Made by a program: the position numbers and the translations under genes. Of a stretch of DNA of 14,566 nucleotides, positions 2,028 through 14,566 are shown in pieces. A model generated the notes under the pieces. That model saw only the letters and a list, made by a program, of their open reading frames with translations. It was not told the DNA's origin and made no database searches. This DNA is from Elusimicrobiota bacterium (GTDB lineage: Bacteria > Elusimicrobiota > Elusimicrobia > JACQJN01). The DNA lies in contig JACQJN010000215.1 of NCBI GenBank assembly GCA_016205085.1, positions 1 through 14,566 of the forward strand, in the 5' to 3' direction. Position 1 is the first letter of the stretch, and every line of letters starts with the position of its first letter.

Positions 2028-2162
2028 CGGCCACAGAATGCAAAACGTCGATTTTCCGCATAATATCTTTCGCTTTTAAACCCATTGCCTTCGTCCCAAT
2101 TACACCTTCCTTTGATAAATTCTAGTGCAACAAAATAGCCAGATAGCACTCTTCGTGGAACG
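2028..2162 (-). promoter_or_regulatory. 135-nt spacer between ccsA and feoB, a candidate feoB promoter/iron-responsive operator region
   Basis: This is the non-coding gap directly upstream of feoB. It contains an AT-rich stretch and a weak Fur-box-like half-site (tgataaattctag, 2113-2125). There is no convincing Shine-Dalgarno for feoB. Confidence 0.2.
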
Positions 2163-2933
2163 CTAGGCGTAGGCGTGCAGGCCGCTCAAGAGGTAGTTGA
2201 CGCCGAAGTAGGTAAAAACCACAAATACAAATCCAGCGATCGCCAGCCACGCAAATCGCTCATTTTTCCAACCTCGAGTGCGTCTCAAATGAATGGCTAT
2301 CGCGTAGAATAACCAGGTCACCAGGGCCCATGTTTCTTTAGGATCCCAGGACCAGTACGTTCCCCAGGCCGAGTTGGCCCAGACAGCCCCGGTGATGATC
2401 CCCAATGCCAAAAACCAAAATCCCACCTGTATGGCCCGATACAGAAACTCATCCAAATGGGCTCCTCGAAATTTCCAATAAACGACCCCTCCCAGAAACC
2501 CCAGGGATAGAGCCGCGTAGCCTATCATGGTTGTGATCACATGGATGAGAAGCCAGTTGGATTGAAGCGCAGGGACCAGAGGAGCCACCCCCGAATCCAG
2601 AAAAGAGGTCACCCCTAAACTCAAAACGAGAAATAAGGAAAGCGCGGGGACCAACCCCTGAAGAGGAAATTTAGAAAAAAAATAGAACAAGACAAACAGG
2701 GTGAGCACGGTCCACAGAAGAAACATCATGGACTCATACTGATTAGAGAGAGGCGCGTGCCCGGAGGCCCGCCAAAGCAAAAGCAGGTGCAGGGATATCT
2801 CCAGCCAGCTTAAAAAAAGAGCAACGAAGACCCAGCGGTTGAAGGAGGGTTTTTTCAAAAGATAACCCGCCACATAGGTTCCCAAGGCCAATAGGGAAAA
2901 TCCAAAAGCAAATTGAAATGCAATTTGTATCAT
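2163..2933 (-). CDS. ccsA: Cytochrome c biogenesis System II heme-handling protein CcsA/ResC (WWD-domain family)
   Basis: Tryptophan-rich WWD signature WGTYWSWDPKETWALVTWLFYAIAIH with flanking conserved His residues and a C-terminal SGLHAY. The protein is polytopic. I placed the start at the internal Met (ATG 2931-2933) because it forms an ATGA overlap with the ccsB stop. The longest ORF extends to 2993 and would overlap ccsB by 64 nt. Confidence 0.8.
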   Translation of the reverse strand: MIQIAFQFAFGFSLLALGTYVAGYLLKKPSFNRWVFVALFLSWLEISLHLLLLWRASGHAPLSNQYESMMFLLWTVLTLFVLFYFFSKFPLQGLVPALSLFLVLSLGVTSFLDSGVAPLVPALQSNWLLIHVITTMIGYAALSLGFLGGVVYWKFRGAHLDEFLYRAIQVGFWFLALGIITGAVWANSAWGTYWSWDPKETWALVTWLFYAIAIHLRRTRGWKNERFAWLAIAGFVFVVFTYFGVNYLLSGLHAYA

Positions 2934-3952
2934 CGCCAAAAAGACCAAGCCAACCCCAGCATGAGAAGAATAAATCCCGTGTATATCACCCAAACACTGG
3001 GATCCTTCACTATCTGAATGCTGGAAAAATTCATATTTTTAGGGTCATACCCCGACTGGTAAAGCCGGTAGCCCTGATAACTCATGGGGGAGTTGACCGA
3101 AATGGTCTGCTTCGTTCCCGGCCCCTGGGTATCTGTGATTTCCAAATCGCTCTCAAACTGGCGGACACGCCCCGGAACGTACTCATAGACCAGACGAAAG
3201 GGCCGTCCCACATCTCCGTGAAAGTCCGGAAATCTGGAAAACACGAACTGCCGCACCGATCCATGTCCATTTTGGACGGACAGCTCCCAGGCCGGGTTCT
3301 CCCGGGCCTCGCTGCGTGATACGGGAGACTTTCCCTCCAAAGCAAACTCGGGATAAAACCGAATCGGCAACACCTTCAAATTTAGGAATTTAAACTCCGC
3401 GATTTGATTCTGAACTAACTCCGCCGATGCATGCTGCCCTGGAGAATCTCCATAAACCACATGCAAAATATGCTTCTCCTGTTCCCAGTAATGGATGCGA
3501 AACGCCTTCAGTTTTATGGAAAAGGGAAGCGAAATCTCCTCATAGCCGTCATTGATATACCCGGACCATACCTGGTCCACATTCATAGGCAAATGGCCCT
3601 TTTGCCCATAGACCCCCCGGATGATGCCCCCCGCAAACAAAAGCAGAATTGCGGCGTGGGAAATAAAAACCCCAGGTCTGACTAAAAGCGCTTTATACCG
3701 CTTTAGAGAGCAAGCCAATAGATTGATTCCGGACAAACCCAACAGCCCCAAAAACCAATAGCTTTTAAAAAGATTATTCCATCCCAAACTCAGGATGAAT
3801 GAAGCCACGGTGCGACCATACGTCTGATGGTATTCTTCCGGGGATTCCCCCTGAGGAACAATCCCCCCTAAAGCACAGGCCAGAAGCAAGCATCCTGCAC
3901 AGATGAAGAAAAATCGGATGGAGGCTAGTTGATCCAGCAGCTTTCTTGCCAT
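2930..3952 (-). CDS. ccsB: Cytochrome c biogenesis System II protein CcsB/ResB family (compact, 340 aa)
   Basis: ResB-like N-terminus (LASIRFFFICAGCLLLACALGGIVPQG) followed by TM helices with a His (FISHAAILLLFAGG). A large hydrophilic periplasmic domain and a C-terminal TM (VWVIYTGFILLMLGLAWSFW) complete the ResB layout. It lies immediately upstream of ccsA with an ATGA stop/start overlap. Confidence 0.72.
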   Translation of the reverse strand: MARKLLDQLASIRFFFICAGCLLLACALGGIVPQGESPEEYHQTYGRTVASFILSLGWNNLFKSYWFLGLLGLSGINLLACSLKRYKALLVRPGVFISHAAILLLFAGGIIRGVYGQKGHLPMNVDQVWSGYINDGYEEISLPFSIKLKAFRIHYWEQEKHILHVVYGDSPGQHASAELVQNQIAEFKFLNLKVLPIRFYPEFALEGKSPVSRSEARENPAWELSVQNGHGSVRQFVFSRFPDFHGDVGRPFRLVYEYVPGRVRQFESDLEITDTQGPGTKQTISVNSPMSYQGYRLYQSGYDPKNMNFSSIQIVKDPSVWVIYTGFILLMLGLAWSFWR

Positions 3953-3956
3953 AAAT

Positions 3957-4421
3957 CTATTTTAATGTGACCTCCTCAAACAATTTCTTCAGTTTCTGCT
4001 GCTGAATCTGGAATTCCTCTTTTTTCATGGCTTTTCTGATCTCGGAATCATAGACCAGAAACTCGATGATATGATCTTCATCCAACTTTTCCAAAGTTAT
4101 TCCACGACCTTCCATTTTAAGGTGCATCCTGTGGACGAACCGCCTCCAGGCGGATTCTTCTATGATGGGAGAATTCAATGCGCGAGCCGGGGCGTGGCAA
4201 GCACCGCAAGCCGTCAGGAAGAGCTTATAGTTTTCCTGCTGTCTTTGGGGATAGCCAGATACGTCCACCGTAGAAGCACCTAAGTCATAAAAAAACCTAG
4301 GGGCCGGACTGGCTGGGCCTTCTCTGCCAGACTCCATCGGAACCGGTGCTTTTCCATTACTAGAACATCCCTCCAGAACCCCCGCAATCATAAAAGCCGA
4401 TAGAAGATGCCGGATTTTCAT
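3957..4421 (-). CDS. Monoheme c-type cytochrome, probably a lipoprotein (ActE-like position in the CISM/ACIII-like module)
   Basis: Start placed at the internal Met (MKIRHLLSAFMIAGVLEGCSS...), which gives a signal peptide ending in a Cys (lipobox-like LEGC). There is a single CGACH heme-binding motif. The ATG at 4419-4421 overlaps the stop of the upstream NrfD-like gene as ATGA. The longer ORF to 4760 has a low-complexity N-terminus and would overlap the upstream gene by 343 nt. Confidence 0.6.
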   Translation of the reverse strand: MKIRHLLSAFMIAGVLEGCSSNGKAPVPMESGREGPASPAPRFFYDLGASTVDVSGYPQRQQENYKLFLTACGACHAPARALNSPIIEESAWRRFVHRMHLKMEGRGITLEKLDEDHIIEFLVYDSEIRKAMKKEEFQIQQQKLKKLFEEVTLK

Positions 4422-5992
4422 GATGCTGGAAAATAGGTCCGGATTCTTTCCGAAACCTCCTCCTCTGCATGCTCTTTTCCCTCCCTCACCTCCCAAATGG
4501 AAACGATGGGGAAAAGCCTCGTAAAAACTGTGTAAAGCAGGGCAAAAGCTGCCAAGCATCCTGCAAAAAGAGAAATCTCCACCCAACTCGGTGAGTAGGA
4601 GCCGACCGTGTAGGGCAGACGAGGCCGAACCAATGTGGGAACTACAATCAGAAACCTCTCCAACCACATCCCCACACACACAAAAGCGGAGGCGGCAACC
4701 GTTCCTCCCACCGTTTTTCCCAGACGCGACGCTAAAACCAGAAAGGGAAAGACAAAACAAGTCAGTGCCATGGTCCAGAAGTGAAAAGAATATCTTCCGG
4801 AAAGCTTGGAAAAGAAGATCAGCATATGGTCCGGCTCATGGCCGTACCAGACCGTAATATACTCGCAAAACGTGAAATAAAGCCACAAACAGCTCATCAC
4901 CAGCAAAAGAGTGCCCAGGTACTGGAAATGGATGGGCCTTAGATATTCTTGGAGACCGTAGGCCTTTCTCAAGACGGCCATAGCGATGATCAGGGCGGCA
5001 ATCCCGGAAAATATGGCTCCCACCACGAAATATGGACCAAATATCGTTGAATGCCACATCGGCTGGACCGTCATGCTGAACACATACGAAACCACCGTGT
5101 GCACTGAAATGGCGACGGGGATGACGACGATCGCCATGATGGCAATACACTTTTCCAAAATCCGCACCTCCTCCGGAGCGCCCGTCCAGCCCAGGGAAAG
5201 CAGTTCATAGAAATCCCTGCGCCAGCCCTGGACATGGTCCCGGAGAATAGCTATGTCCGGAATAAGGGGAATGTACAGGTAGATGCTGCTGGCCGTCAGG
5301 TAGGCGGTGATGCTGCAAACGTCCCAGAGAAGGGGGGATTCATATCTCCCATATAAGAACACATTCAACATCCGGTCGGGGCGGCCCAGATCGAGAAGAA
5401 TATTGGCCGCCCCGAAGAAAAGGACCATCACCGTAATCACCTCGGCCGAGCGGGTAATCGGCCTGCGCCACTCGGCATTGGCAATTCTTAATATGGCTGA
5501 GATCAAAGTCCCCGCATGAGAAATGCCTATGAAAAAGACAAAATTGGTGATGTAAAATCCCCAGAAGACCGGGTTGCCCAACCCAGTGACCTGAAGACCC
5601 CGAAAGACCTGTTGACTCCAGGCAAAAAGCGCCCAGAGGGAGACGGAAACCAGAATTCCCACAAACAACAGAAATCCTTTTCCAGGAGGATTGAGAATGG
5701 GCGCGATCAGAGCGGACTCCGTCTTCGAGATCGGGACAGGCTCGGTAACCCCTGCCTTTTTTTCTTTGACGGCCACGGTATAAAAAAGGAATGTGAGAAC
5801 GGCTGAAAAGAGGATAAAGAGGGGGCCCACAAGGCACCCGATGACTGCTCCGGCCATCCAGTTGTCTCCTAAATCACGAAGTTTTTGAATGCGCCACAGA
5901 AACCAGCCGTTGACCGCAAGAGTAAAAGCGTAGAAGGCCAGGAGACCGCAGACTTGAACATAAAACGCCCAACCCTTTCTTTTCATGGTCAC
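4418..5992 (-). CDS. NrfD/PsrC/ActC-family integral membrane quinone-interacting subunit (about 12 predicted TM helices)
   Basis: I count about 12 hydrophobic helices by eye: a 10-TM NrfD-like core with motifs such as HAGTLISAIL...ANAEWRRP, plus two extra N-terminal helices. The GTG at 5990-5992 overlaps the FeS-subunit stop (GTGA). An ATG two codons downstream (5984-5986) sits 10 nt after a GGGAGGGGG Shine-Dalgarno and is an equally plausible start. Confidence 0.8.
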   Translation of the reverse strand: MTMKRKGWAFYVQVCGLLAFYAFTLAVNGWFLWRIQKLRDLGDNWMAGAVIGCLVGPLFILFSAVLTFLFYTVAVKEKKAGVTEPVPISKTESALIAPILNPPGKGFLLFVGILVSVSLWALFAWSQQVFRGLQVTGLGNPVFWGFYITNFVFFIGISHAGTLISAILRIANAEWRRPITRSAEVITVMVLFFGAANILLDLGRPDRMLNVFLYGRYESPLLWDVCSITAYLTASSIYLYIPLIPDIAILRDHVQGWRRDFYELLSLGWTGAPEEVRILEKCIAIMAIVVIPVAISVHTVVSYVFSMTVQPMWHSTIFGPYFVVGAIFSGIAALIIAMAVLRKAYGLQEYLRPIHFQYLGTLLLVMSCLWLYFTFCEYITVWYGHEPDHMLIFFSKLSGRYSFHFWTMALTCFVFPFLVLASRLGKTVGGTVAASAFVCVGMWLERFLIVVPTLVRPRLPYTVGSYSPSWVEISLFAGCLAAFALLYTVFTRLFPIVSIWEVREGKEHAEEEVSERIRTYFPAS

Positions 5993-6696
5993 ACCCCCTC
6001 CCTTAGATAGGTGACCTTGGGCTCGGTGCCCAATTCCTCCAAAAGGTGAAACGCGCGAGGGTCTTTGCAGAGCCTTGAGACGTCACTTTCGGAATCGTTC
6101 AGATCGCCGAACACAATCGCCTTGGCAGGGCAAACCTCCGCGCATGCCGGCTGGTAATCCCCCTCCTGTAGGTTCCGCCCCTGCGCCACAGCTTCTTCCT
6201 TGGCGCGTTGAAGGCGGTGATGGCAGAAAAGGCATTTTTCAACGACCCCATTCGGCCTTACCGAAACGCTGGGATTGAACGAAGATCGCATTTCATCGGG
6301 CCAGAGTGGCTTCTTCCAGTTGAAGAATTTGCAGGTGTAGGGACAGGCATTCAAGCAATACCGGCATCCGATGCATCGCGAGTACACCTGACCCACAATA
6401 CCCTCCTCGTTTTTGAAGGTGGCATAGACGGGACAGACCTTGATACAGGGAGGATTTTCACACTGCTGGCAAGGCATGGGGATCAAGTTCTGACGCACAT
6501 GCGAACCCTCCACCTCCGTTTTGGGAAGAATCTTCAACCAACGGATGACCCTGCCCATCGCAGCTTCCTCAGGGCTCCCCAGCATCTGGTTGTTCTCGAC
6601 CGAGCAGGCCACCACGCAAGCACCGCACCCCGTGCATTTGTCGAGATCCACAACCATTCCCCAGCGGTGCTGCCCCTTTCTGCGACTCTCTTCCAT
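5989..6696 (-). CDS. Four-cluster 4Fe-4S ferredoxin-type electron-transfer subunit (PsrB/NrfC/HybA/ActB2-like)
   Basis: N-terminus WGMVVDLDKCTGCGACVVAC. Four Cys clusters are present: CxxCxxCxxxC, CQQCENPPCIKVCP, CIGCRYCLNACP and CLFCHH...CAEVCP. It has no signal peptide of its own, consistent with TAT hitch-hiking on the adjacent MopB subunit. It starts 4 nt after the MopB stop. Confidence 0.85.
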   Translation of the reverse strand: MEESRRKGQHRWGMVVDLDKCTGCGACVVACSVENNQMLGSPEEAAMGRVIRWLKILPKTEVEGSHVRQNLIPMPCQQCENPPCIKVCPVYATFKNEEGIVGQVYSRCIGCRYCLNACPYTCKFFNWKKPLWPDEMRSSFNPSVSVRPNGVVEKCLFCHHRLQRAKEEAVAQGRNLQEGDYQPACAEVCPAKAIVFGDLNDSESDVSRLCKDPRAFHLLEELGTEPKVTYLREGV

Positions 6697-6700
6697 GGCG

Positions 6701-8710
6701 TTATGCTTTCATGAGACGACACCTGCCGCCGCGAAATTGCGGATCGACCCCGTCTCCCTCGGCGATCTCCAAGGGGTTGGCTCCCAATCCCTTGGCCCAT
6801 CTCCCATAAGCCGTGTGCCCCAACCCCACCGGAACACTCACCACATCCGGCATGGTCCAGGGTACGAGGCGCGCCTTGACCTGAATTTTTCCTCTCCTGG
6901 ACTCCACCCATACCCTGTCTCCATCGACGATGCCGTATTTTCGGGCGGTGTCAGGATGAATTTCCGCCCATGTTCCCCACGTTTCCTGAGCCTGCGGTCC
7001 CGCGACGCTTTGGAGATAGGGAAGATGGGCTCCCTCTCCGCGGAAAAAAGCAAGGGGGGTGAAGAGATATAGGAAAAGCGGAAATTCCGCGTCCCCTTTC
7101 AGCTCCGGCACCCGATGTTTAAGAGCATCCACCAAGGGGCTGAATCTAAATCGTTCCAACATCTTCCCGCTCTTCGGGATCTCCATCCACCGGACTTCCC
7201 CCTCCGGTTCCAGAAGACTCTCACCCTTGAGCTCTTTCGCCCTGATCTTATGATAGGATTGGAATTCACCCAGGGCCGGAGCCGCTCCTTCAACAACTCG
7301 TTTTAATAGAAGGAAAATTTCTCCAGGATCCTTCGTGTCGTAGAGAGGCTCCACGGCCCGTGGGCTGGCATTTAAAACGGATTTTCCATCTATTGTGGAA
7401 TGCTGGGACAGGTGGAGCTGCTCTAAAGGCGTATGGCAAGGAAGTACAATGTCCGAAATCTCGGCTGTCTCGGTCATGTGGGGCGAAACAGTGACGATGA
7501 ACGGCACATTTTCCAGTACGGACTTCCACTGGCCCGACCCAAAAAAAACGGGATTTACACGATCCACAATCATCACTTGAGGCGCCGCTTTCCTGAACCG
7601 CTCCGCGCTCTCCTCCCGTTTCTCCAAGCCGCCCACCGTCCAAACCGTTTCTTCGCTTCCCATGCTGCCCAGAATCATATTCAGGGCGGAAACCGCCATT
7701 CGGTTGAAAATAAAATCAGACCCCATAATGGCTGCGGCCGGTTTCAAATGAATAAATTTCAGAAGGAGAAGCTTGATCTCTTTCTCCGGAATTTGAGTCC
7801 ATCGGGACACCCGTTCCAGAGACAACATTTCCACAGCTCTTTTAAATTCCTCGAACCCATCCGTATGGCCTTGGATATAAGCCTTGCCGTAACTTCCGTT
7901 CACAATGAGCTCCCGCGCCAGCCACAAAGCCAGTACTCCTTCCGTCCCGGGCCGGATGGGCATCCACTCATCCGCCTTGGCGGCCGTCACGGAAAACCGC
8001 GGCTCGATCTGAACGACGTGGGTTCGTTGCCTGCCGGGCCACCGCCGAAGTTTGGCAAAAGCCCTCTGAGCCTCCACGGGTGAAGGATGAGTCTGGAGCC
8101 AATCGAATCCAAAAGAAACAAGAAGTCGGATCCGGTCCAAATCCCAAAATGTCCGCGGGCTAGACTCCAAGGTCACAAAATTCCCCTCACCCACTGAACC
8201 GGCCAGCCCCTTTAAAGCTTCCTGATGCACGTCCTTGGGTTCTCCGGGAGTCAGGAGCGCCAAAGGCCGTTTCACTTTTTCTAGATTTGCCTTGGATATC
8301 CTTCCCGCGATCCGGCGCACAGCTTCCTCCCAAGAGATCGCAGTCCACCTCCCCGCGCCCCGAGGACCTTCGCGCACCAGCGGGCCACGAAGACGGTCCG
8401 GATGGTACAACTCCTGAAGGACGGCGGCTCCTTTAGGACAAAGGCTTCCTTGATTGATAGGATGATCCTGAGTCCCTGAAATTCCCACCGCGCGGCCATC
8501 CATCTTGCGTACGCGGATGCCGCAGCCGGCCGGACACATGCCGCATATCCCCTGAACGAATGTCTCCTTGCCTGGTTGAGGCAATGGTGTCTCTCTGGGC
8601 TTAAGGACAGTTTCCCTGGCCCAGGAAGGCAGCACAGAGCCCGCTCCCAATAGGCCGGCCAACTTCAGAAAGGCTCGTCTCGATATCTCCATATTACAGG
8701 TGGCACGCAA
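6701..8710 (-). CDS. TAT-exported molybdopterin-oxidoreductase (Mo-bisPGD/MopB) family catalytic-type subunit, PsrA/PhsA/ActB1/QrcB-like (669 aa)
   Basis: Twin-arginine signal (MEISRRAFLKLAGLLGAGSVLPSWA). A canonical FS0 [4Fe-4S] motif CGMCPAGCG-x27-CPKG (CX2CX3CX27C) is present. The MopB core signature VVQIEPRFSVTAAKADEWMPIRPGTEGVLALWLAREL is also present. The alternative start MEISRR... at 8692 would leave a 1-nt gap to the upstream gene instead of a 17-nt overlap. Confidence 0.8.
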   Translation of the reverse strand: MRATCNMEISRRAFLKLAGLLGAGSVLPSWARETVLKPRETPLPQPGKETFVQGICGMCPAGCGIRVRKMDGRAVGISGTQDHPINQGSLCPKGAAVLQELYHPDRLRGPLVREGPRGAGRWTAISWEEAVRRIAGRISKANLEKVKRPLALLTPGEPKDVHQEALKGLAGSVGEGNFVTLESSPRTFWDLDRIRLLVSFGFDWLQTHPSPVEAQRAFAKLRRWPGRQRTHVVQIEPRFSVTAAKADEWMPIRPGTEGVLALWLARELIVNGSYGKAYIQGHTDGFEEFKRAVEMLSLERVSRWTQIPEKEIKLLLLKFIHLKPAAAIMGSDFIFNRMAVSALNMILGSMGSEETVWTVGGLEKREESAERFRKAAPQVMIVDRVNPVFFGSGQWKSVLENVPFIVTVSPHMTETAEISDIVLPCHTPLEQLHLSQHSTIDGKSVLNASPRAVEPLYDTKDPGEIFLLLKRVVEGAAPALGEFQSYHKIRAKELKGESLLEPEGEVRWMEIPKSGKMLERFRFSPLVDALKHRVPELKGDAEFPLFLYLFTPLAFFRGEGAHLPYLQSVAGPQAQETWGTWAEIHPDTARKYGIVDGDRVWVESRRGKIQVKARLVPWTMPDVVSVPVGLGHTAYGRWAKGLGANPLEIAEGDGVDPQFRGGRCRLMKA

Positions 8711-9194
8711 GACAATCGTTTGTGACTTTCCTTCTCCTATGACAATCCATACAACGCTCCATCTTGATGGGAATCACCTGACGGGTGACGGGAACCTCCC
8801 TTTTGGACATATCCCCGTGGCATACGGCGCAATCGAGCTTGGCGATACCCACATGGCGCCTATGGGAAAAGTAGACGTGCTGCGGAACACGGTAAATCTG
8901 GTTCCAAGGTATCTCTCTATTTTCCAGGATGTAGGCCTGGACGACTTTTAATTTGGGATTGTCCGTATCCTGGTTGTGGCAGGAAGCGCAGGTTTCCAAG
9001 GGCGGGAGAGTCGCATGAACACCTCCCTCCGCAATACCGGCATGACAATTGGCGCACTCCAGGCCCAGTTCGATGTGTTTTTTATGGTTATACGGGACGG
9101 GCTGCTTCTTGGAGTCTGACTGGTGCCAGGCCAAAAGGAACCAGACTGAACCAAGCAAAACAAGGGATAAAACGGCTGCCGCAAGATCTTTCAT
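8694..9194 (-). CDS. Membrane-anchored pentaheme c-type cytochrome (ActA/QrcA-like electron entry/exit subunit)
   Basis: N-terminal hydrophobic signal-anchor (AAAVLSLVLLGSVWFLLAW). Five CxxCH motifs (CANCH, CASCH, CAVCH, CMDCH, CLACH) lie within 166 aa. GGGGAGGAG sits immediately upstream of the ATG. Confidence 0.75.
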   Translation of the reverse strand: MKDLAAAVLSLVLLGSVWFLLAWHQSDSKKQPVPYNHKKHIELGLECANCHAGIAEGGVHATLPPLETCASCHNQDTDNPKLKVVQAYILENREIPWNQIYRVPQHVYFSHRRHVGIAKLDCAVCHGDMSKREVPVTRQVIPIKMERCMDCHRRRKVTNDCLACHL

Positions 9195-9215: not shown

Positions 9216-10097
9216 TTACTTCTGCGGGGTTTTGGGCGGCGCACCCGCAAATTCCTTTGCCAAGGCTGTGACGCCGGACATCGCTCCCAAACCCATGGTC
9301 TCCACGGCGCTGGAGGGAACGATCACGATGGTGGAATTTTGCCGCATTCCTTCCAGTAGAATATTCATCGCACGCAAATGCAGAGCAATGGGACTATTCA
9401 CGTAGGCCTTAGAAGATTCTTCGAACACCTGTGAAACCTGCCGTTCTGAATCTGCCAGGATCACCCTTGCCTGACGCTCCCTCTCCGCCTGCGCCTGCAT
9501 GGACATGGCATTCTGAAGGCCGGCCGGTATTTTCACGTCGCGGATCTCCACAGAAATGGCTTTAATGCCCCAGGCTTCCGTCCGTTGATCAATCATAGCG
9601 CAAAGATCCTTATCGATCTTCTCCCGGCCTCTGAGCATTTCCGAGAGATCGGTTCTTCCGATCACATCCCGCAGAGCGGTTTGACTGGACCATGTAATAG
9701 CCTGCCGGTAATCCTCCACTTCCACAGCTGCCTTCTTCGAATCCACGACCCGCCAGAAGAGAACCGCATCCACATCCACAGGCACGCTGTCTTTGGTGAG
9801 GGTCTGCTCCGCAGTGAAGGGAGTCGTTATCGTACGCAGATCTATCCAATAAGGGATGGTGTCCACGAAAGGAATGACGCCAAAAACTCCTGGACCCTTC
9901 AAATCAAGATATTTTCCAAGCCGAAGAATCACCGCTTTTTGCCATTGGCGTGCAACGCGGATGGCCAGAACGAATAAGACAGCCAAGGCTGAGACTGCAA
10001 CTCCAAGGGCTGGATTCTCAAGCTTGACGCCCAAGAAGCCTCCTGCGGTCATCATCACGACAAACACCACCGCTGTCACAGGATGAATTCCCATCAT
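9216..10097 (-). CDS. SPFH/band-7 (stomatin/prohibitin-like, slipin) membrane scaffold protein
   Basis: N-terminal TM helix followed by a PHB-domain-like sequence (AVILRLGKYLDLKGPGVFGVIPFVDTIPYWIDLRTITTPF...AVLFWRVVD...). A coiled-coil-like AQAERERQARVILADSERQ segment follows. A GGAGG RBS lies 4-7 nt upstream of the ATG. Confidence 0.85.
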   Translation of the reverse strand: MMGIHPVTAVVFVVMMTAGGFLGVKLENPALGVAVSALAVLFVLAIRVARQWQKAVILRLGKYLDLKGPGVFGVIPFVDTIPYWIDLRTITTPFTAEQTLTKDSVPVDVDAVLFWRVVDSKKAAVEVEDYRQAITWSSQTALRDVIGRTDLSEMLRGREKIDKDLCAMIDQRTEAWGIKAISVEIRDVKIPAGLQNAMSMQAQAERERQARVILADSERQVSQVFEESSKAYVNSPIALHLRAMNILLEGMRQNSTIVIVPSSAVETMGLGAMSGVTALAKEFAGAPPKTPQK

Positions 10098-10197: not shown

Positions 10198-11433
10198 TTA
10201 TTTTTTCACGGCTAGAGACAATATATAGGCCGTCAACGCGTGAATCTCATCGTCCCGAAGCTCCAGTTTGGGCATTGTGGAACCCGGGCTTACCATTTGA
10301 GGATCTCGGAAATGTTTAGTAAGCCACTCCTCCGCTTTCTCGCCGGCCACCTTATCCAAAGCGGGTCCAACCGCACCCCCCTTTCCATTGATCTTATGAC
10401 AATAGCCACAATTTAAGTTGCGGTACAATCTCCGACCCGTAAAAACTACCGGGTTCTTTTCAGCGACAGAAGTCAAGGGCGAACCAGTGTATTTCTGAGC
10501 GGTGATGTAGCGGGCGATATCCTCTATCTGCGTGTCGGTCAACTGGCCTTTATACCCCGGCATCGTAGAGGACGAGTTGAGTTGGGAAGGATCCAGAATA
10601 TATTTTTTGATGTAGGCTTTGTCGCGGGCCGAACCGATGAGGGAAAGATCAGGCCCCACATCCCCACCTTCCCCACCTATACGGTGACAAGCCGTACAGT
10701 TAGCCGCAAAAAGCTTAGGTGCCTCGCCGGTGAAGGGTCCTCCCGCCAAAGACTTCATGTAGGCCGCCAGGGCTTGAATCTCATCTTCCAAAAGATTAAG
10801 TTTAGGCATATCCGACCCCGGGCGGGGGTCTCTAAGATGGCCGATGAGCCACTCCTCCGTTTCCTCACCCACAACCTTATCGAGTTCAGGGCCGATGGAG
10901 CCGCCCTTTCCCGCAATCTTGTGACAGTAAGCGCAATTCAAACTCCTATACAGCCTGTGCCCCGCCAGGACCAGAGGGTCCTTCTCAATGACAGGATTGG
11001 TGAGAGGGCTCTTGTAGCCCGCCCAGGTGAGATAGGTGATGCCGGCCAGAGCCAAAACTCCCAAACCGGTCCAGAGAGGCCGGTCCAAAGGATGGCGCCT
11101 GGAATCTTTATCCAAAAAGGGCAAAAGAAGCAGAAAAGAGACGGCCAACCCCGGAAGTAGGATGGCCGCGACGGCTTCCAGATGGCCGGGAAAGAACTTG
11201 AGCGCCTGAAAAAGAAACAAAAAGTACCACTCCGGACGGGGATTATAGGTCGTATCCGTGGGATCGGCCAATTCCTCAAGTTTCACCCCAAACTTGTATG
11301 CCAGGAATGAAAGAGCGCACAGGATAAGAAAAGTAACCAACGTGTCCTTGAAGACCGCATAGGGGAAAAATGGTTTGCCCTCCTCCTTCAAACGAATGTA
11401 GCGCTTCTTATATTCCTCGTACCAATTTTGCAT
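10198..11433 (-). CDS. qcrC: bc-complex subunit IV (PetD-like, 3 TM, PEWYFLFLFQ motif) fused to three tandem class-I cytochrome c domains (QcrC-like triheme variant)
   Basis: PEWYF motif and three TM helices are followed by three CxxCH domains (CAYCHKIAGKGGSIGP, CTACHRIGGEGGDVGP, CGYCHKINGKGGAVGP). Start chosen at the internal Met (MQNWYEEY...; ATG 11431-11433), 2 nt after the cytochrome b6 stop. The longer ORF to 11679 would overlap cytochrome b by 244 nt. Confidence 0.75.
   Translation of the reverse strand: MQNWYEEYKKRYIRLKEEGKPFFPYAVFKDTLVTFLILCALSFLAYKFGVKLEELADPTDTTYNPRPEWYFLFLFQALKFFPGHLEAVAAILLPGLAVSFLLLLPFLDKDSRRHPLDRPLWTGLGVLALAGITYLTWAGYKSPLTNPVIEKDPLVLAGHRLYRSLNCAYCHKIAGKGGSIGPELDKVVGEETEEWLIGHLRDPRPGSDMPKLNLLEDEIQALAAYMKSLAGGPFTGEAPKLFAANCTACHRIGGEGGDVGPDLSLIGSARDKAYIKKYILDPSQLNSSSTMPGYKGQLTDTQIEDIARYITAQKYTGSPLTSVAEKNPVVFTGRRLYRNLNCGYCHKINGKGGAVGPALDKVAGEKAEEWLTKHFRDPQMVSPGSTMPKLELRDDEIHALTAYILSLAVKK
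10207..10974 (-). repeat. Intragenic duplication: cytochrome c domain 1 (about 10744-10974) and domain 3 (about 10207-10449) of the subunit-IV-triheme fusion are close paralogous copies
   Basis: The protein segments align at about 60% identity by eye (GHRLYRSLNCAYCHKIAGKGGSIGPELDKV.../GRRLYRNLNCGYCHKINGKGGAVGPALDKV...). Shared DNA strings are visible, including tgaatctcatc, agccactcctccg and ccaccttatc. The middle domain is more divergent. Confidence 0.5.
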
Positions 11434-11435
11434 TT

Positions 11436-12104
11436 CTAACGCTTTTTTTGAGGAACCTCTGAAATCCCATGCCATACCACAAGAAAAAGATGCGCTCCTA
11501 TCAAAAGACCGATCACCATTGGCAAAACTAAAACGTGCAGCGCATAAAACCGGGTCAGAGTAGCCGCTCCCATATCCTCCCCACCTATAAGGATCTTGGA
11601 AATATAAGCCCCCAAAATCGGTGTTTGGCCCGCGATGTTGGCCCCCACCATGGTGGCCCAGTAAGCCTTCTGATCCCAAGGCAATAGATACCCTGTAAAA
11701 CTAAATCCCATCACCAATAAAAATAAAAAGACCCCGACGATCCATGTGGCTTCACGTGGATACTTATACGCCCCCATAAAGTACACCCTCAGCATATGCA
11801 GGGATACCAATACCACCATGAACGTGGCTCCCCAGTGATGCAATCCGCGAATCAGCCACCCCAATAGAACTTGCTCGCTGATGAACCGCACGGAATCATA
11901 GGCATGATCCGGGGAAGGAACATAGTTCATGGCCAAGAGCGCTCCCGTCACCGCCTGAACCATAAATACGAAAAGGGACGCGCTCCCCAATGTATAAAAC
12001 CAGGCAACAGGACCCTTGGCTTCGGGAATGTGCCGGGCAAAGAGAGCCTGCCACACCTTCTGGAATCCGGTCCTCTCATCCAGCCAAGCAAGAATGTTCT
12101 TCAT
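11436..12104 (-). CDS. qcrB: Cytochrome b6-type (split cytochrome b, N-terminal 4-helix heme-b-binding half)
   Basis: Strong cytochrome b6 signatures: GWLIRGLHHWGA, LPWDQKAYWA, TLTRFYALH and C-terminal WHGISEVP. Start placed at the internal Met MKNILAWLDERTGF (ATG 12102-12104), which forms an ATGA overlap with the Rieske stop. Confidence 0.85.
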   Translation of the reverse strand: MKNILAWLDERTGFQKVWQALFARHIPEAKGPVAWFYTLGSASLFVFMVQAVTGALLAMNYVPSPDHAYDSVRFISEQVLLGWLIRGLHHWGATFMVVLVSLHMLRVYFMGAYKYPREATWIVGVFLFLLVMGFSFTGYLLPWDQKAYWATMVGANIAGQTPILGAYISKILIGGEDMGAATLTRFYALHVLVLPMVIGLLIGAHLFLVVWHGISEVPQKKR

Positions 12105-12607
12105 GCTTTCTCCTGATGCACGGGCTGAGGTAAAATCAAAAGCTGCCCTCCCACCACTTTTACCAGAAAGCGGTCCAAAGGCCTGGGTGGCGGGCCACTC
12201 ACCACCTTCCCATCCACATCGAAGACGGCGGTATGACAGGGACAAAGAAACTGCTTCTTCTGTTCATCCCAGCGGTAAGGGCAGCCTAGGTGGGTGCAAC
12301 GAGGATCGAAGACGATAAAATCCTTCCCGTTAGAGGTGAGAATCCAGGCCGAGGACCTGCGCTCCGTTGTCACCCAGGCATCCCGTTTGCGCTCCACAAA
12401 CTCCACTTTTATGGGAAGCCCCGGCTTAAAATTGTCGGCCCGCCCGATATCCAACCAGCCTTCCTCCTTTTTCTTGAAAGCCGGAGATATGAAATAACCC
12501 AGGCCGGCACCCCCCAGAATGGCGCCGATGAGGCCGCCCAGTCCGAATATGGCCCACTGCAGAAAAGAACGCCTGGAAATCGTGCTGTCAGGGCTGGGGT
12601 GTTCCAT
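12101..12607 (-). CDS. qcrA: Rieske [2Fe-2S] iron-sulfur protein with TAT signal
   Basis: TAT motif SRRSFLQ plus a TM anchor. Rieske box I CTHLGC and box II CPCH are separated by about 15 residues. Confidence 0.85.
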   Translation of the reverse strand: MEHPSPDSTISRRSFLQWAIFGLGGLIGAILGGAGLGYFISPAFKKKEEGWLDIGRADNFKPGLPIKVEFVERKRDAWVTTERRSSAWILTSNGKDFIVFDPRCTHLGCPYRWDEQKKQFLCPCHTAVFDVDGKVVSGPPPRPLDRFLVKVVGGQLLILPQPVHQEKA

Positions 12608-13346
12608 GCTTTTGCAGTTCCTTAATTTGAAGCTCGTTGAGGATATCGACAGAACGCCGGGTGACTTCTTGAGCCGCCTTCAGCACCTCCATCATTTTGA
12701 ATGTGTGCCAATCCTCCAGGGTGTGCCGGTACATTCCCATGATTTTCTGATAATCCTGTCCCTGCCGTGAAATATCCGCTTTCTGTCCATGACTTTCCTG
12801 AAGAGTTTTTTCCAATCTCTTGAAAGTCTCTCCGGCATTGTTGAGCGCCATGAGCGTGGCGTAAGCCTGGGTGGGACGCCTATGGCAGACCGTACAGGTC
12901 ATCTCCAATTCTCTAGGGGCCAGGACATGATTGGCCATGGAGCCGTGACAGGTGACACAGTTGGGACCCCTTCCCGAACTCTGCAGATCCCTATAATGAG
13001 CGCTTCTCTTAAACGCCTTAAACTCCGCCTGATGGCAAGTCCCACAGGTTGCAGGAATACGCGTGTAGTATACGAGACTCTTGGAATTTGTCGAAGGCAT
13101 CATGCCTTTATGCGCCGCTCTCTTTTCTCCTTCGGAAGGATTCCCTCCGTGGCAGGTCTCACACCGAATCCCCGCCCTGGCATGGACTGATTTCTCCCAA
13201 TCTGAAAAGTTGTGTTCAAGATAGGAAACCCCTCCCACGCCTCTGTGACAAGCGACGCAAGAATTTTCCTGCTGAGTCTCGCCCCTCAGGAGAGAACATG
13301 ATAGCACTAAAAATAAAATACCGGCAACAGGATTAAAAAAATTCAT
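12588..13346 (-). CDS. Periplasmic pentaheme c-type cytochrome
   Basis: Start at MNFFNPVAGILFLVLSCSLLRG (signal peptide), preceded by GGAGG at 9-nt spacing. Five CxxCH motifs are present (CVACH, CETCH, CGTCH, CVTCH, CTVCH). The C-terminal region is helical and Lys/Glu-rich. Confidence 0.75.
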   Translation of the reverse strand: MNFFNPVAGILFLVLSCSLLRGETQQENSCVACHRGVGGVSYLEHNFSDWEKSVHARAGIRCETCHGGNPSEGEKRAAHKGMMPSTNSKSLVYYTRIPATCGTCHQAEFKAFKRSAHYRDLQSSGRGPNCVTCHGSMANHVLAPRELEMTCTVCHRRPTQAYATLMALNNAGETFKRLEKTLQESHGQKADISRQGQDYQKIMGMYRHTLEDWHTFKMMEVLKAAQEVTRRSVDILNELQIKELQKHGTPQP

Positions 13347-13365: not shown

Positions 13366-14566
13366 CTAAGGATGGCATCCCGCACAAACAGATTGCACCT
13401 GCTTACGAAGAGGCACTTTCTTGTGCGCTCCTATCTCGTGGCATTTCACGCACCCCATCATCTCCATATGAGCCCTGTGCGGCATCGTCTTTCCGGACAT
13501 TGGACCCAGCTCCGGACTGGAAGTCTCCACAGTTTCGGGAGGGACCTGAACGCCAATTTTAGAATGGCACAGGGTGGCGCAAAAACCTCCCGACAAAAGG
13601 GGCAGAGAGGAGAGGTCTTGAGTCTGTGCTTGAATCCTCTCTCCTATCTCCGAAAGAATTTCATCCTCCCGGCGCAAAGCCAGAGAAGCCAGATAGATAT
13701 TGTGCTCCCCCCGGGAAGCGTGGACGAAGTGATGCCAGTGCTCCGCCCGGGCCGCCTTCTTTTCGATCTCCCGGCGCTCCTGTCCCGCCAAATGGGACGC
13801 CGCTATCGCGGAGCGGATCTGATCGAGTTTTCGTTCCAGCTGAGCCAAACCTTCTTCCAGCTCCGATTTTGTCTCCTGCCAGATTCCTTCAAATTTTGAA
13901 CCGTGGCACTTGACACAGGCCTGGGTGGAGGCTCTGTACGTTTTGCCTCGAAACTCTTCCTCCTGAACATCCTTTTTCTCGCTGTAGTGACACCCCACGC
14001 AATCCACTTGGGCCAGATACATGGGACTGGGCATCTCCGGAAGCCCCAGCGCAGAAACTTTGCCCGAATACATCTCCAACTGGCCCGTGTGCTTGTTCTG
14101 ATGGCAGTAGGAACAATCAAATGTAAGAGTAGGAGACCGGCCCGACACCCCAACAGTAGAGAGCGCAAGAAGAGGCTCTCCCAATCGGACAATGCGAGAA
14201 TCATCCTGTGATTCAAAACCATGGCGGATCTCTTGATGGCAGCGGAAACAGGCCACGTGATGCTTGGTCACGTGATTCTCATGCAAAAATGGAATATCTC
14301 CATACCGCTTAAGTTTTTCCGGCTGATTGTGGCAGGTGAAGCACCGGTCCTCGGGAGCCTTCCCTTCCCCACGAACCACATCCAGATGGCAGTTTTGACA
14401 CGCCAGCCCCTGCTTGACCACAAAATCTTTGTGATTGTAAGTCATGTTGGCAATCTGAAATGATTTTTGAGGAATGTCATGACATCCCAGACAGCCTCCA
14501 ATGGGCCGGAGTTCTCTGCCGGCTCCCTTTCCCTTAAAATGGCACAGGTAGCAGGTGTCGTAAGCC
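13366..14566 (-). CDS. Large multiheme c-type cytochrome, 5' end truncated by the window edge (at least 10 CxxCH motifs plus one CxxxCH in window)
   Basis: The reading frame stays open upstream of the listed Met all the way to the window end. My hand translation of the rc of 14446-14566 gives ...CYLCHFKGKGAGRELRPIGGCLGCHDIPQKSFQIANMTYNHKD. This is low-confidence: its first CxxCH (CYLCH) is placed after re-cutting the trailing nucleotides of the window. From the Met the track protein carries CQNCH, CFTCH, CFRCH, CSYCH, CVGCH, CVKCH, CATLCH (CX3CH), CVKCH and CAGCH. A central coiled-coil and His-rich segment (HWHHFVHASRGEH) is present. Confidence 0.7.
   Translation of the reverse strand, partial: AYDTCYLCHFKGKGAGRELRPIGGCLGCHDIPQKSFQIANMTYNHKDFVVKQGLACQNCHLDVVRGEGKAPEDRCFTCHNQPEKLKRYGDIPFLHENHVTKHHVACFRCHQEIRHGFESQDDSRIVRLGEPLLALSTVGVSGRSPTLTFDCSYCHQNKHTGQLEMYSGKVSALGLPEMPSPMYLAQVDCVGCHYSEKKDVQEEEFRGKTYRASTQACVKCHGSKFEGIWQETKSELEEGLAQLERKLDQIRSAIAASHLAGQERREIEKKAARAEHWHHFVHASRGEHNIYLASLALRREDEILSEIGERIQAQTQDLSSLPLLSGGFCATLCHSKIGVQVPPETVETSSPELGPMSGKTMPHRAHMEMMGCVKCHEIGAHKKVPLRKQVQSVCAGCHP

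What the first reader, a model, noticed from the sequence alone, without database searches (positions are those of the whole stretch)
13366..14566. Truncated giant multiheme cytochrome with an atypical CX3CH motif, a His-rich patch and an internal coiled coil
Besides at least 10 canonical CxxCH motifs in window (one more, CYLCH, is claimed only from my low-confidence reading of the window-edge extension), the sequence FCATLCHS is a CxxxCH spacing. Such non-standard motifs often mark a special heme with unusual ligation or a catalytic heme. A long Glu/Arg/Leu-rich helical segment (ELEEGLAQLERKLDQIRSAIAASHLAGQERREIEKKAARAEHWHHFVHASRGEH) interrupts the heme-packed regions. This resembles the long helices of the NrfA/HAO/ONR superfamily more than compact MtrA/c3-type wires, hinting at a catalytic multiheme enzyme rather than a pure wire. 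The 5' end lies outside the window.
Basis: seen in the sequence. Interest (0 to 1): 0.55.

Follow-up and report, generated by a model that had tools for sequence, protein, structure and literature searches.

The report
Truncated 15-heme membrane-anchored quinol cytochrome
The window ends inside the gene for a roughly 575-residue, 15-heme membrane-anchored cytochrome from a widespread but unstudied family; it joins a quinol-oxidising NrfH-type module to a nitrite-reductase-like heme scaffold, and its odd CX3CH motif is most likely an ordinary heme site.

Summary
The sequence facts hold. On the minus strand, 13366-14565 encodes the last 399 residues of a c-type cytochrome cut by the contig end. 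It has 10 CxxCH motifs plus CATLCH, and all 22 cysteines lie in these motifs.

The protein is not giant. Full-length relatives (43-68% identical) are 550-610 aa with 15 heme motifs. Their order is: one transmembrane helix, an NrfH/NapC-type tetraheme module, three hemes, a five-heme module with a three-helix bundle, then a c7-like triheme.

The five-heme module plus bundle is homologous to OcwA (profile E 2e-12), and NrfA, ONR and MccA are structural hits.

The idea of a special CX3CH heme is not supported. The motif is kept in 118 of 119 close relatives, but one has CxxCH there. In the wider superfamily the site is CX3CH in 54 and CxxCH in 46 of 148 representatives, and it sits in a c3/c7-like domain.

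The His patch is not conserved. No CxxCK is present, and OcwA's distal non-bonding His is not conserved. The genes lie in heme-rich respiratory islands, often directly after a CbcL-like gene.

My best reading is a quinol-linked electron-transfer hub. A catalytic site cannot be excluded.

The parts
13366..14565 (-). 3' part (399 codons plus TAG stop) of a multiheme c-type cytochrome gene. The 5' end, about 175-200 codons, is lost at the contig end.
   Evidence: 100% identical to an NCBI partial protein on a 14,566-nt contig. Full-length homologs are 550-610 aa.
14386..14565 (-). Residues 1-60: three CxxCH hemes (CYLCH, CLGCH, CQNCH). These are hemes 5-7 of the full protein and link the missing NrfH-like module to the NrfA-like module.
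   Evidence: coordinates. Pfam Cytochrome_C7 and c3_2 hits. Motifs and H45 are invariant in 111 sequences.
13885..14382 (-). Residues 62-227: NrfA/OcwA-like five-heme module (CFTCH, CFRCH, CSYCH, CVGCH, CVKCH) with invariant H115, H159 and M182. It contains a variable, low-confidence linker at residues 116-147 (14125-14220).
   Evidence: Profile versus PDB: OcwA E 1.9e-12. MAFFT aligns all five motifs with OcwA hemes 5-9. Conservation. pLDDT below 50 at residues 121-125 and 135-142.
14329..14343 (-). CFTCH (residues 75-79): the counterpart of OcwA heme 5 and NrfA heme 1, and so the only candidate for an open or catalytic heme.
   Evidence: Aligned with OcwA CLKCH. OcwA heme 5 is five-coordinate (PMC6703420). 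Its status here is unknown.
14089..14091 (-). H159, invariant. It aligns with OcwA H380, the first His of the HH pair above heme 5. The next residue, which corresponds to OcwA H381, is variable.
14020..14022 (-). M182 (PSPMY), invariant. It aligns with a Met in OcwA and is a candidate axial ligand for a His/Met heme. This is an inference.
   Evidence: OcwA heme 9 is His/Met, but the paper text I read gives no residue number.
13636..13884 (-). Residues 228-310: antiparallel three-helix bundle. It contains invariant H288-N289 (GEHN, 13699-13710) and the non-conserved HWHHFVH (13720-13740).
13564..13581 (-). CATLCH (residues 329-334): the CX3CH heme-attachment motif, heme 13 of 15.
   Evidence: Kept in 118 of 119 close homologs, with CAMCH in P0079. 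In the wider superfamily it is CX3CH in 54 and CX2CH in 46 of 148. It is predicted helical at residues 328-334.
13369..13602 (-). Residues 322-399: C-terminal triheme module (CATLCH, CVKCH, CAGCH) with conserved H363, H366 and H381. It has a cytochrome c7-like 'xxHxxH...CxxCH' pattern.
   Evidence: phmmer versus PDB: cytochrome c7 1kwj/1ehj, E 0.002-0.003 over residues 41-80 of the 81-residue query. Conservation. The module is absent from 12-heme relatives that end after the bundle.
12588..13346 (-). Next gene in the operon: a 252-aa secreted pentaheme cytochrome with a helical C-terminal part. Its ATG lies 19 nt after the target's stop and is preceded by AGGAGG.
   Evidence: Weak hits to MccA, the nine-heme cytochrome and NrfA.
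10198..12607 (-). Rieske protein (12101-12607), cytochrome b6-like N-terminal part (11436-12104), and a subunit-IV-like part fused to three monoheme c domains (10198-11433). Together these make a bc-type complex downstream of the target.
   Evidence: Pfam and NCBIfam. The same order, target then Rieske then cyt b, occurs in L070 and L018.

Best explanation
The fragment is the periplasmic C-terminal two thirds of a cytoplasmic-membrane-anchored, 15-heme c-type cytochrome.

Shown for full-length homologs, and inferred for this truncated copy: an N-terminal transmembrane helix is followed by an NrfH/NapC-type tetraheme module that keeps the menaquinol-site signature. That signature is CxxCHxM at heme 1, the equivalent of Lys82, and Gln in place of NrfH Asp89.

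Shown in the window:
- three linker hemes;
- a five-heme module plus three-helix bundle homologous to OcwA hemes 5-9, that is, the NrfA-type module of the octaheme family;
- a c7-like triheme whose first heme is attached through CATLCH.

Inferred mechanism: quinol is oxidised (or quinone reduced) at heme 1 on the periplasmic face of the membrane. Electrons then run along a closely packed 15-heme chain to or from soluble or membrane partners in a heme-rich respiratory island. Those partners include a CbcL-like b/c cytochrome, a multiheme-FeS-NrfD complex, and a Rieske/cyt b complex.

The CX3CH is a one-residue-expanded but otherwise ordinary heme site, probably bis-His. The bundle is an inherited structural scaffold that supplies H288 as a probable axial ligand. 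I think the chain is mainly an electron-transfer hub rather than an enzyme, but that step is the weakest.
For: Architecture:
- Homologs of 550-610 aa carry PF03264 plus c3/c7 domains.
- The heme pattern is 13 CxxCH + 1 Cx3CH + 1 Cx4CH in 95 of 108, and 14 + 1 + 0 in 11 of 108.
- The NrfH alignment covers the TM helix, CHIM, Lys82 and Asp89->Gln (conservation).
- OcwA profile hit at E 1.9e-12, NrfH at 5e-11, NrfA at 5e-3.
- All five heme motifs are in register with OcwA.
- AF2 models have pLDDT 85.6 and 86.4, each with three long helices.
- The C-terminal part is c7-like.

CX3CH is an ordinary site:
- P0079 has CAMCH at that position.
- The split is 54 CX3CH to 46 CX2CH across superfamily representatives.
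- Expanded motifs are routine in c3-type cytochromes (established knowledge; listed in PMC11492766).

Non-catalytic leaning:
- There is no CxxCK.
- The OcwA H381 counterpart is variable.
- Ten conserved non-motif His (nine at >=99%, H102 at 90%) plus M182 (100%) and M361 (97%) are enough to six-coordinate all 11 hemes of the fragment.

Context:
- A CbcL-like gene sits directly upstream on the same strand in 41 of 73 loci, and within 10 kb in 64 of 86.
- Start and stop overlaps with neighbours occur in L001, L005 and L070.
- The median 20-kb locus has 4 multiheme genes and 34 CxxCH motifs.
- Rieske/cyt b and FeS/NrfD each occur in about 28 of 86 loci.
- A porin-cytochrome set is present in L004, and FeoAB in L003 and L005.
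Against: - The N-terminal quinol module is not in the window and is only inferred from homologs of up to 68% identity.
- No member of the family has been studied experimentally, as far as my literature searches show.
- Enough conserved His does not prove six-coordination. OcwA also has enough His, yet it carries two five-coordinate hemes.
- H159 sits where OcwA has a distal-pocket His, so an open site at the CFTCH heme remains possible.
- The direction of electron flow and the physiological partners are inferred from gene neighbourhood only.
Confidence: 0.6

Rival explanations
1. The protein is a self-contained quinol-dependent reductase, effectively an NrfH-NrfA/ONR-type fusion. The CFTCH heme, the counterpart of NrfA heme 1 and OcwA heme 5, would be five-coordinate with H159 in its distal pocket. 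It would reduce a small substrate such as nitrite, NO, hydroxylamine, sulfite or a metal chelate, and the other hemes would feed it electrons from quinol.
For: - The module is homologous to the NrfA-like (heme 5-9) module of OcwA, whose heme 5 is an open putative active site.
- Every characterised member of that group shows nitrite or NO reductase activity in vitro (PMC9250108).
- OcwA's active heme also uses CxxCH, not CxxCK.
- Invariant H159 aligns with OcwA H380 by two methods.
- NrfH and NrfA form a physical complex in nature, so a fusion is plausible (established knowledge; 2j7a hit).
Against: - There is no CxxCK.
- The NrfA Tyr/His/Arg triad could not be aligned.
- Neighbouring genes are quinone-interacting complexes and multiheme cytochromes. 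No nitrogen- or sulfur-cycle enzyme recurs in the five annotated loci: nar-like genes appear only in L002, on the other strand, and I did not survey the other loci for such genes.
- The number of conserved His and Met is sufficient for full six-coordination.
Confidence: 0.25
2. The same protein works mainly in reverse, as a quinone reductase. It would take electrons from extracellular or periplasmic donors such as Fe(II), a cathode or reduced humics into the quinone pool, in lithotrophic groundwater bacteria.
For: - The family is found almost only in MAGs, many of them from groundwater or sediment metagenomes: Elusimicrobia, NC10, Omnitrophota, Riflebacteria and others.
- The neighbouring CbcL/MtoC-type cytochromes occur in both Fe(III) reducers and Fe(II) oxidisers (PMC6295460).
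- FeoB or FeoAB lies nearby in the window and in L003 and L005.
- The downstream bc complex carries cbb3-type monoheme c domains, which suggests a high-potential branch.
Against: - Nothing in the sequence fixes the direction of flow.
- The characterised NrfH/NapC-type relatives read here (NrfH, ImcH, CymA) oxidise quinol.
- There is no Cyc2 or MtoA marker in the window.
Confidence: 0.15
3. One reading: the CX3CH motif marks an unusually ligated or catalytic heme in a giant enzyme.
For: The motif is strictly kept in the close family, 118 of 119. Some non-standard motifs do mark special hemes, for example NrfA CxxCK (established knowledge).
Against: - The site is canonical CxxCH in P0079 and in 46 of 148 superfamily representatives.
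- It lies in a c7-like triheme with exactly three conserved spare His (H363, H366, H381) for three hemes.
- The whole triheme is absent from the 12-heme relatives.
- The protein is about 575 aa, not giant.
Confidence: 0.05

Closest known systems
OcwA (Thermincola potens nonaheme cell-surface reductase, PDB 6I5B) and OmhA
   Different: OcwA is a soluble, cell-wall protein of Gram-positive bacteria with a c554-like N-terminal module, 9 hemes and nothing after the bundle. This protein is membrane anchored through an NrfH-like module, has 15 hemes and carries a triheme after the bundle. It keeps only the first His of OcwA's HH380/381 pair.
NrfH / NapC / NirT / CymA quinol dehydrogenases (PF03264; PDB 2J7A chain C)
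   Same: Homologs have a single TM helix, CxxCHxM at heme 1, the Lys82 equivalent and four hemes. PF03264 scores 54 bits against a cut-off of 24.1.
   Different: Eleven further hemes are fused on. The NrfH equivalog model scores 69.6 against a cut-off of 134.2. Asp89 is replaced by Gln, and heme 3 is usually Cx4CH. This part is missing from the window.
ImcH (Geobacter inner-membrane heptaheme quinol oxidase)
   Same: It is an NrfH-like module extended by extra hemes and works as a quinol oxidase for extracellular electron transfer. Both have one CX3CH motif, and ImcH has a predicted Gln near heme 1.
   Different: ImcH has three TM helices and 7 hemes, and its CX3CH is the first motif, next to the membrane. 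Here there is one TM helix and 15 hemes, the first motif is CxxCHxM, and CX3CH is motif 13. ImcH is not reported to contain an NrfA-like module or a bundle.
NrfA / octaheme nitrite reductase (ONR) / MccA
   Different: There is no CxxCK, no recognisable Tyr/His/Arg triad and no PF02335 hit. Hemes follow the bundle, and the protein is fused to its own quinol module.
Cytochrome c7 / c3
   Same: The C-terminal 40 residues match c7 residues 13-53, including the HxxH distal ligands. Expanded Cys spacing is typical of c3.
   Different: Here it is one module of a large fusion, and the first heme precedes the c7-like segment rather than following it.

Membership tests
NapC/NirT/NrfH family (PF03264) | An N-terminal transmembrane helix followed by a tetraheme domain that matches the family model | not testable with these tools
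   The N-terminus is lost at the contig end. In homologs the test is met: P0002 scores PF03264 at 54 bits (cut-off 24.1), and NrfH 2j7a_C matches at E 3.4e-8 over the TM helix and hemes 1-3.
NapC/NirT/NrfH family (PF03264) | An NrfH-type quinol site: CxxCHxM, Lys82 and Asp89 | tested here: inconclusive
   This was tested in homologs only. CHIM and a Lys at the Lys82 position are at least 90% conserved, but Asp89 is replaced by a conserved Gln.
NrfH equivalog (TIGR03153) | A score above the curated cut-off of 134.2 bits | tested here: not met
   P0002 scores 69.6 bits and the window fragment 12.8 bits.
NrfA pentaheme nitrite reductase (PF02335) | A CxxCK active-site heme and a match to the family model | tested here: not met
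   There is no CxxCK and no PF02335 hit. Only weak profile similarity to NrfA chain positions 242-365 is seen (hits 2rf7 242-355 and 4wjy 252-365; E 5e-3).
NrfA/ONR/MccA/OcwA homologous group (as defined in PMC9250108) | The C-terminal-module heme motifs in register, plus the three-helix bundle | tested here: met
OcwA/OmhA | Non-bonding distal His residues (H282, H381) above two five-coordinate hemes, and a cell-surface location | tested here: not met
   The H381 counterpart is variable, and only the H380 counterpart (H159) is invariant. The H282 region is not alignable. Homologs have an N-terminal membrane anchor.
ImcH | Three TM helices, CX3CH as the first motif next to the membrane, and 6-10 heme-binding motifs in all (5-9 CX2CH plus the CX3CH) | tested here: not met
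   Homologs have one predicted TM helix (residues 28-47 of P0002). The first motif is CNSCHIM, CX3CH is motif 13, and there are 15 hemes. ImcH features are taken from PMC6295460.
MtrA/DmsE decaheme wires (TIGR03508) | A match to the family model | tested here: not met
   The target and P0002 give no hit. PF22113, the MtrC/MtrF domain II/IV model (a different Mtr protein), scores 28.6 for the window fragment (below the cut-off of 30) but 46.2 for the full-length homolog P0002 (above it).
Cytochrome c7/c3 (C-terminal module only) | An HxxH...CxxCH...CxxCH pattern that matches solved c7 structures | tested here: met
   E is 0.002-0.003 to 1kwj/1ehj over 40 residues. H363, H366 and H381 are at least 99% conserved. 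The match is weak and covers only two of the three hemes.

The most novel reading that the evidence does not exclude
This may be a fourth, phylogenetically widespread class of inner-membrane quinol:cytochrome oxidoreductase for periplasmic or extracellular electron transfer, alongside CymA, CbcL/MtoC and ImcH.

It would have been made by fusing NrfH to an octaheme nitrite-reductase-type scaffold, and it would grow by adding C-terminal triheme modules (12, 15, 18, 21... hemes). It is usually co-transcribed with a CbcL-like b/c cytochrome, with which it may form a two-entry quinone module. It may also keep a substrate-accessible heme inherited from its enzyme ancestor.
Probability: 0.3. Interest if true: 0.65.

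Novelty: new variant of a known kind. Interest (0 to 1): 0.4.

Why it matters
Which proteins link the quinone pool to multiheme electron conduits is a central question in work on metal respiration and iron oxidation. Only three families are recognised so far: CymA, CbcL/MtoC and ImcH. All three were defined in Proteobacteria or Geobacter.

The family found here occurs in at least 586 species-level genomes. The 80 best-matching loci, the only ones listed, are nearly all labelled as metagenome-assembled genomes, and none names a cultured strain. It forms 473 clusters at 50% identity with E <= 1e-30. In 41 of 73 loci it sits directly beside a CbcL-like gene.

It also shows the NrfA/ONR enzyme scaffold fused to its own quinol dehydrogenase and apparently reused as a wire. 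[quoted passage not shown]

For the specific claim I was given, the practical lesson is negative. A CX3CH spacing on its own does not flag a catalytic heme.

Tried and rejected
1. Extending the contig. An exact-sequence look-up of the neighbouring Rieske protein found no other contig. The window is the whole contig, so the N-terminus could only be inferred from homologs.
2. AFDB50 fold search. The library was not available.
3. Deciding heme ligation from the AF2 models. The tools return no coordinates (one search shows only FASTA files), so I could only count conserved His and Met residues. That count is not decisive.
4. A quick regex classification of the motif after the bundle was wrong, because it picked up 'AKHN' upstream. 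I replaced it with an hmmalign-based column read-out.
6. The HMMER alignment to OcwA mis-paired CSYCH with a non-heme stretch. L-INS-i restored all five motifs in register. H159 aligned with OcwA H380 in both.
7. Literature searches for this architecture (CX3CH; Elusimicrobia + multiheme + NapC/CbcL; 'pentadecaheme' / '15 heme') found no description of it.
8. ImcH membership was considered because of its CX3CH and NapC-like module. I rejected it on the number of TM helices, the position of the motif and the heme count.
9. Paralogy between the target and the downstream pentaheme gene is only marginal (BLASTP E 0.001 over 82 residues).
Full report
**What is in the window**

On the minus strand an open frame runs from the window edge (14565) to a TAG stop at 13366-13368 and encodes 399 residues. 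The protein is identical to an NCBI entry, 'hypothetical protein HY400_05690, partial [Elusimicrobia bacterium]', whose contig is 14,566 nt long. The window is therefore the entire contig, and the gene is cut by the assembly.

The fragment has ten CxxCH motifs and one CX3CH (CATLCH, 13564-13581). All 22 cysteines belong to these motifs. Shuffling the residues gives 0.06 CxxCH on average.

CYLCH lies inside the window (14539-14553), so the canonical count is ten, not ten plus one. The gene is also not 'giant'.

**Size and architecture**

A search of 5.8 billion proteins returned 240 relatives. The 119 best are 43-68% identical over the whole fragment, and when complete they are 550-610 aa long. 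They are annotated only as 'NapC/NirT family cytochrome c' or 'cytochrome c3 family protein'.

Alignments of 26 and 111 sequences and motif counts give a fixed plan of 15 hemes: 13 CxxCH + 1 Cx3CH + 1 Cx4CH in 95 of 108 full-length proteins, and 14 + 1 + 0 in 11.

The missing N-terminal 175-200 residues form one transmembrane helix and an NrfH/NapC-type tetraheme.
- Pfam PF03264 scores 54 bits against a cut-off of 24.1.
- The solved NrfH structure (2j7a_C) aligns over the helix and hemes 1-3.
- The CxxCHxM methionine and the Lys82 position are conserved, and Gln replaces Asp89 (conservation).
- The NrfH equivalog model itself is not reached: 69.6 bits against 134.2.

**The helices and the NrfA-type module**

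A profile of the family hits the solved structure of OcwA (6I5B) at E 1.9e-12. The match covers profile positions 248-494 against chain 268-498. The same profile hits NrfH at 5e-11 and E. coli NrfA at 5e-3.

OcwA is a nonaheme cytochrome. Its hemes 5-9 superimpose on NrfA, and its C-terminus is a three-helix bundle 'reminiscent of NrfA, HAO and MccA' (PMC6703420).

A local L-INS-i alignment puts all five motifs of the window protein in register with OcwA hemes 5-9:

| Window motif | OcwA motif |
|---|---|
| CFTCH | CLKCH |
| CFRCH | CQVCH |
| CSYCH | CTQCH |
| CVGCH | CVDCH |
| CVKCH | CSSCH |

Four other conserved residues align as well: H115, H159, M182 and H288.

AlphaFold2 models of a full-length homolog (pLDDT 85.6) and of the window fragment itself (pLDDT 86.4) both predict three long antiparallel helices. 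In the window protein these are residues 228-256, 261-283 and 286-310.

**The CX3CH motif**

In the close family the motif is present in 118 of 119 proteins that cover the site, mostly as CATLCH or CATMCH. The one exception, P0079, has the canonical CAMCH at exactly that position.

I then ran a profile search of 1.84 billion 50%-identity representatives. It found 3,610 relatives, 473 of them at E <= 1e-30. Aligning the 148 newly returned representatives among the best 150 to the family HMM gave the following at the homologous site:
- 54 have CX3CH;
- 46 have canonical CX2CH;
- 40 lack the region, typically because they end after the bundle as 12-heme proteins such as P0135 and P0140;
- 8 are ambiguous.

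The motif sits in a predicted helix (residues 328-334). It lies at the start of a C-terminal triheme whose last 40 residues match cytochrome c7, including the HxxH distal-ligand pair (E 0.002). The three spare histidines of that module (H363, H366, H381) are at least 99% conserved, one for each heme.

Expanded Cys spacings are routine in c3-type cytochromes. The family also has a Cx4CH in its NrfH-like heme 3 that alternates with CxxCH. I conclude that CATLCH binds a heme, but there is no sign that this heme is special.

**The His-rich patch**

HWHHFVH is shared with the closest homolog. Across 111 sequences, however, those columns are His in only 7-14% of cases, and Arg, Lys, Tyr or Leu are commoner. 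Only H288-N289 (GEHN) is invariant. It aligns with GVHN in OcwA, so H288 is probably an axial ligand donated by the bundle. That last point is an inference.

**Is there a catalytic heme?**

The only serious candidate is CFTCH. It corresponds to OcwA heme 5 and NrfA heme 1, which are five-coordinate active sites.

Against a catalytic site:
- There is no CxxCK.
- The fragment has ten conserved non-motif His (nine at >=99%, H102 at 90%) plus M182 (100%) and M361 (97%) for eleven hemes. This is enough for full six-coordination.

For a catalytic site:
- Invariant H159 aligns with OcwA H380 by both HMMER and MAFFT.
- OcwA itself has enough His for bis-His ligation of every heme, yet it keeps two open hemes.

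I could not read model coordinates, so this question stays open. I put the wire reading at about 0.6 and the enzyme reading at about 0.25.

**Genomic setting**

In the window the gene is followed, on the same strand, by these genes:
- a secreted pentaheme cytochrome, starting 19 nt after the stop with an AGGAGG ribosome-binding site;
- a Rieske protein;
- a split cytochrome b whose second half is fused to three monoheme c domains;
- an SPFH protein;
- a QrcABCD-like set;
- a monoheme lipoprotein;
- ResB/CcsA;
- FeoB.

A scan of one genome per species found relatives in at least 586 genomes. The 80 best loci are nearly all labelled as metagenome-assembled genomes and none names a cultured strain. 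Most are Elusimicrobia. Others are RIF Deltaproteobacteria, Riflebacteria, Eisenbacteria, Omnitrophota, Planctomycetota, Firestonebacteria, NC10/Methylomirabilis and Acidobacteriota.

Across 86 loci the most constant neighbour is a CbcL/MtoC-like protein, which has a multiheme c domain plus a dihaem-b membrane domain. It lies directly upstream on the same strand in 41 of 73 loci that have enough upstream DNA, and within 10 kb in 64 of 86. In L001 and L005 it overlaps the target's start codon.

Rieske/cyt b and FeS/NrfD modules each occur in about 28 of 86 loci. The loci closest in gene order (L070, L018) repeat the window's order. L070 also shows what probably lies beyond the contig end: CbcL-like, then a multiheme cytochrome, FeS protein and NrfD protein, then the target.

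A typical 20-kb locus holds four multiheme genes and 34 CxxCH motifs. L004 adds a porin-cytochrome set.

This is the signature of a respiratory or extracellular-electron-transfer island, not of a nitrogen- or sulfur-cycle enzyme operon.

**Comparison with known systems**

The protein works like an NrfH/CymA/ImcH-type quinol dehydrogenase with a long built-in wire. It is not a member of any named family below the level of 'NapC/NirT-like' and 'NrfA/ONR/MccA/OcwA homologous group'.
- ImcH differs in having three TM helices and seven hemes, with its CX3CH next to the membrane.
- OcwA differs in location, in its N-terminal module, in heme number and in its distal His pair.
- NrfA differs in its CxxCK motif and catalytic triad.

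I found no paper that describes this architecture.

**Verdict**

The NrfA-like hunch is right, and the 'special CX3CH heme in a giant enzyme' idea is not.

What is there is a truncated member of a large, uncharacterised, modular family of membrane-anchored multiheme cytochromes. It is a new variant of known kinds, of moderate interest mainly to people who work on electron transfer in uncultured anaerobes.

Noticed in passing
P0121-P0268 (representatives); no window coordinates: Heme-motif counts in the wider superfamily cluster at 12 (35 proteins), 15 (11), 18 (59), 21 (9), 24 (3) and 27 (4), that is, in steps of three (one search counts). Longer members such as P0121, P0134 and P0141 repeat a unit of three to four hemes plus a helical bundle carrying a 'G.HN' His. 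The family seems to grow by C-terminal triheme and bundle modules. The window protein is the 12 + 3 form.
   Followed up: partly
P0200, P0228, P0242: Three representatives of 1,321-1,441 aa carry an N-terminal polytopic membrane domain of about 870 residues with many hydrophobic helices. It is fused in front of the NrfH-like and NrfA-like cytochrome part. The membrane domain was not identified.
   Followed up: no
Homologs, NrfH-like module (outside the window); P0002 residues 58-108: The NrfH quinol-site Asp89 is replaced by a Gln that is at least 90% conserved, while CxxCHxM and the Lys82 position are kept. A His/Gln-coordinated heme 1 has been predicted for ImcH (bioRxiv 10.1101/2023.05.03.539133). 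Heme 3 of this module is Cx4CH (CLRSGCH) in most members and CxxCH in 11 of 108.
   Followed up: partly
window 12588-13346 (-): A 252-aa secreted pentaheme cytochrome directly downstream also ends in a long helical region. It gives weak hits to MccA (E 2e-4), to the nine-heme cytochrome and to NrfA. It may be a second, small member of the same broad group. Similarity to the target is marginal.
   Followed up: partly
window 10198-12607 (-): This is a Rieske/cytochrome b complex with a split cytochrome b. The subunit-IV-like half is fused to three monoheme c domains of the cbb3 FixO/FixP and SoxX type. The b6-like half is closest to Geobacter ExtP of the selenite/tellurite 'ext' operon, at 232 bits, below the cut-off of 290.
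   Followed up: partly
window 9216-10097 (-): An SPFH/band-7 gene sits between the bc-type genes and the Qrc-like genes. It keeps this position in the syntenic loci L070 (84% identity) and L018 (66%), which suggests it belongs to the respiratory island.
   Followed up: no
window 4418-9194 (-): This is a QrcABCD/ACIII-like set: a five-heme QrcA-like protein, a TAT-exported molybdopterin-type subunit with the N-terminal 4Fe-4S Cys motif, an FeS subunit, and an unusually long (524-aa) NrfD-type membrane subunit. All score below the NCBIfam equivalog cut-offs, so the substrate or quinone function is unassigned.
   Followed up: no
window 3957-4421 (-): This is a small predicted lipoprotein (154 aa from MKIRHLL..., lipobox LEGC) with a single CGACH heme motif. 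It has no Pfam or NCBIfam match and starts right at the stop of the NrfD-like gene.
   Followed up: no
window 54-3952 (-): System II cytochrome c maturation genes (ResB 2930-3952, CcsA 2163-2993) and FeoB (54-2027) close the island. CcsA-like genes lie within 10 kb of the target's relatives in 19 of 86 loci, and FeoAB is next to them in L003 and L005. I did not examine whether a dedicated CcsBA is needed for the CX3CH and CX4CH sites.
   Followed up: no
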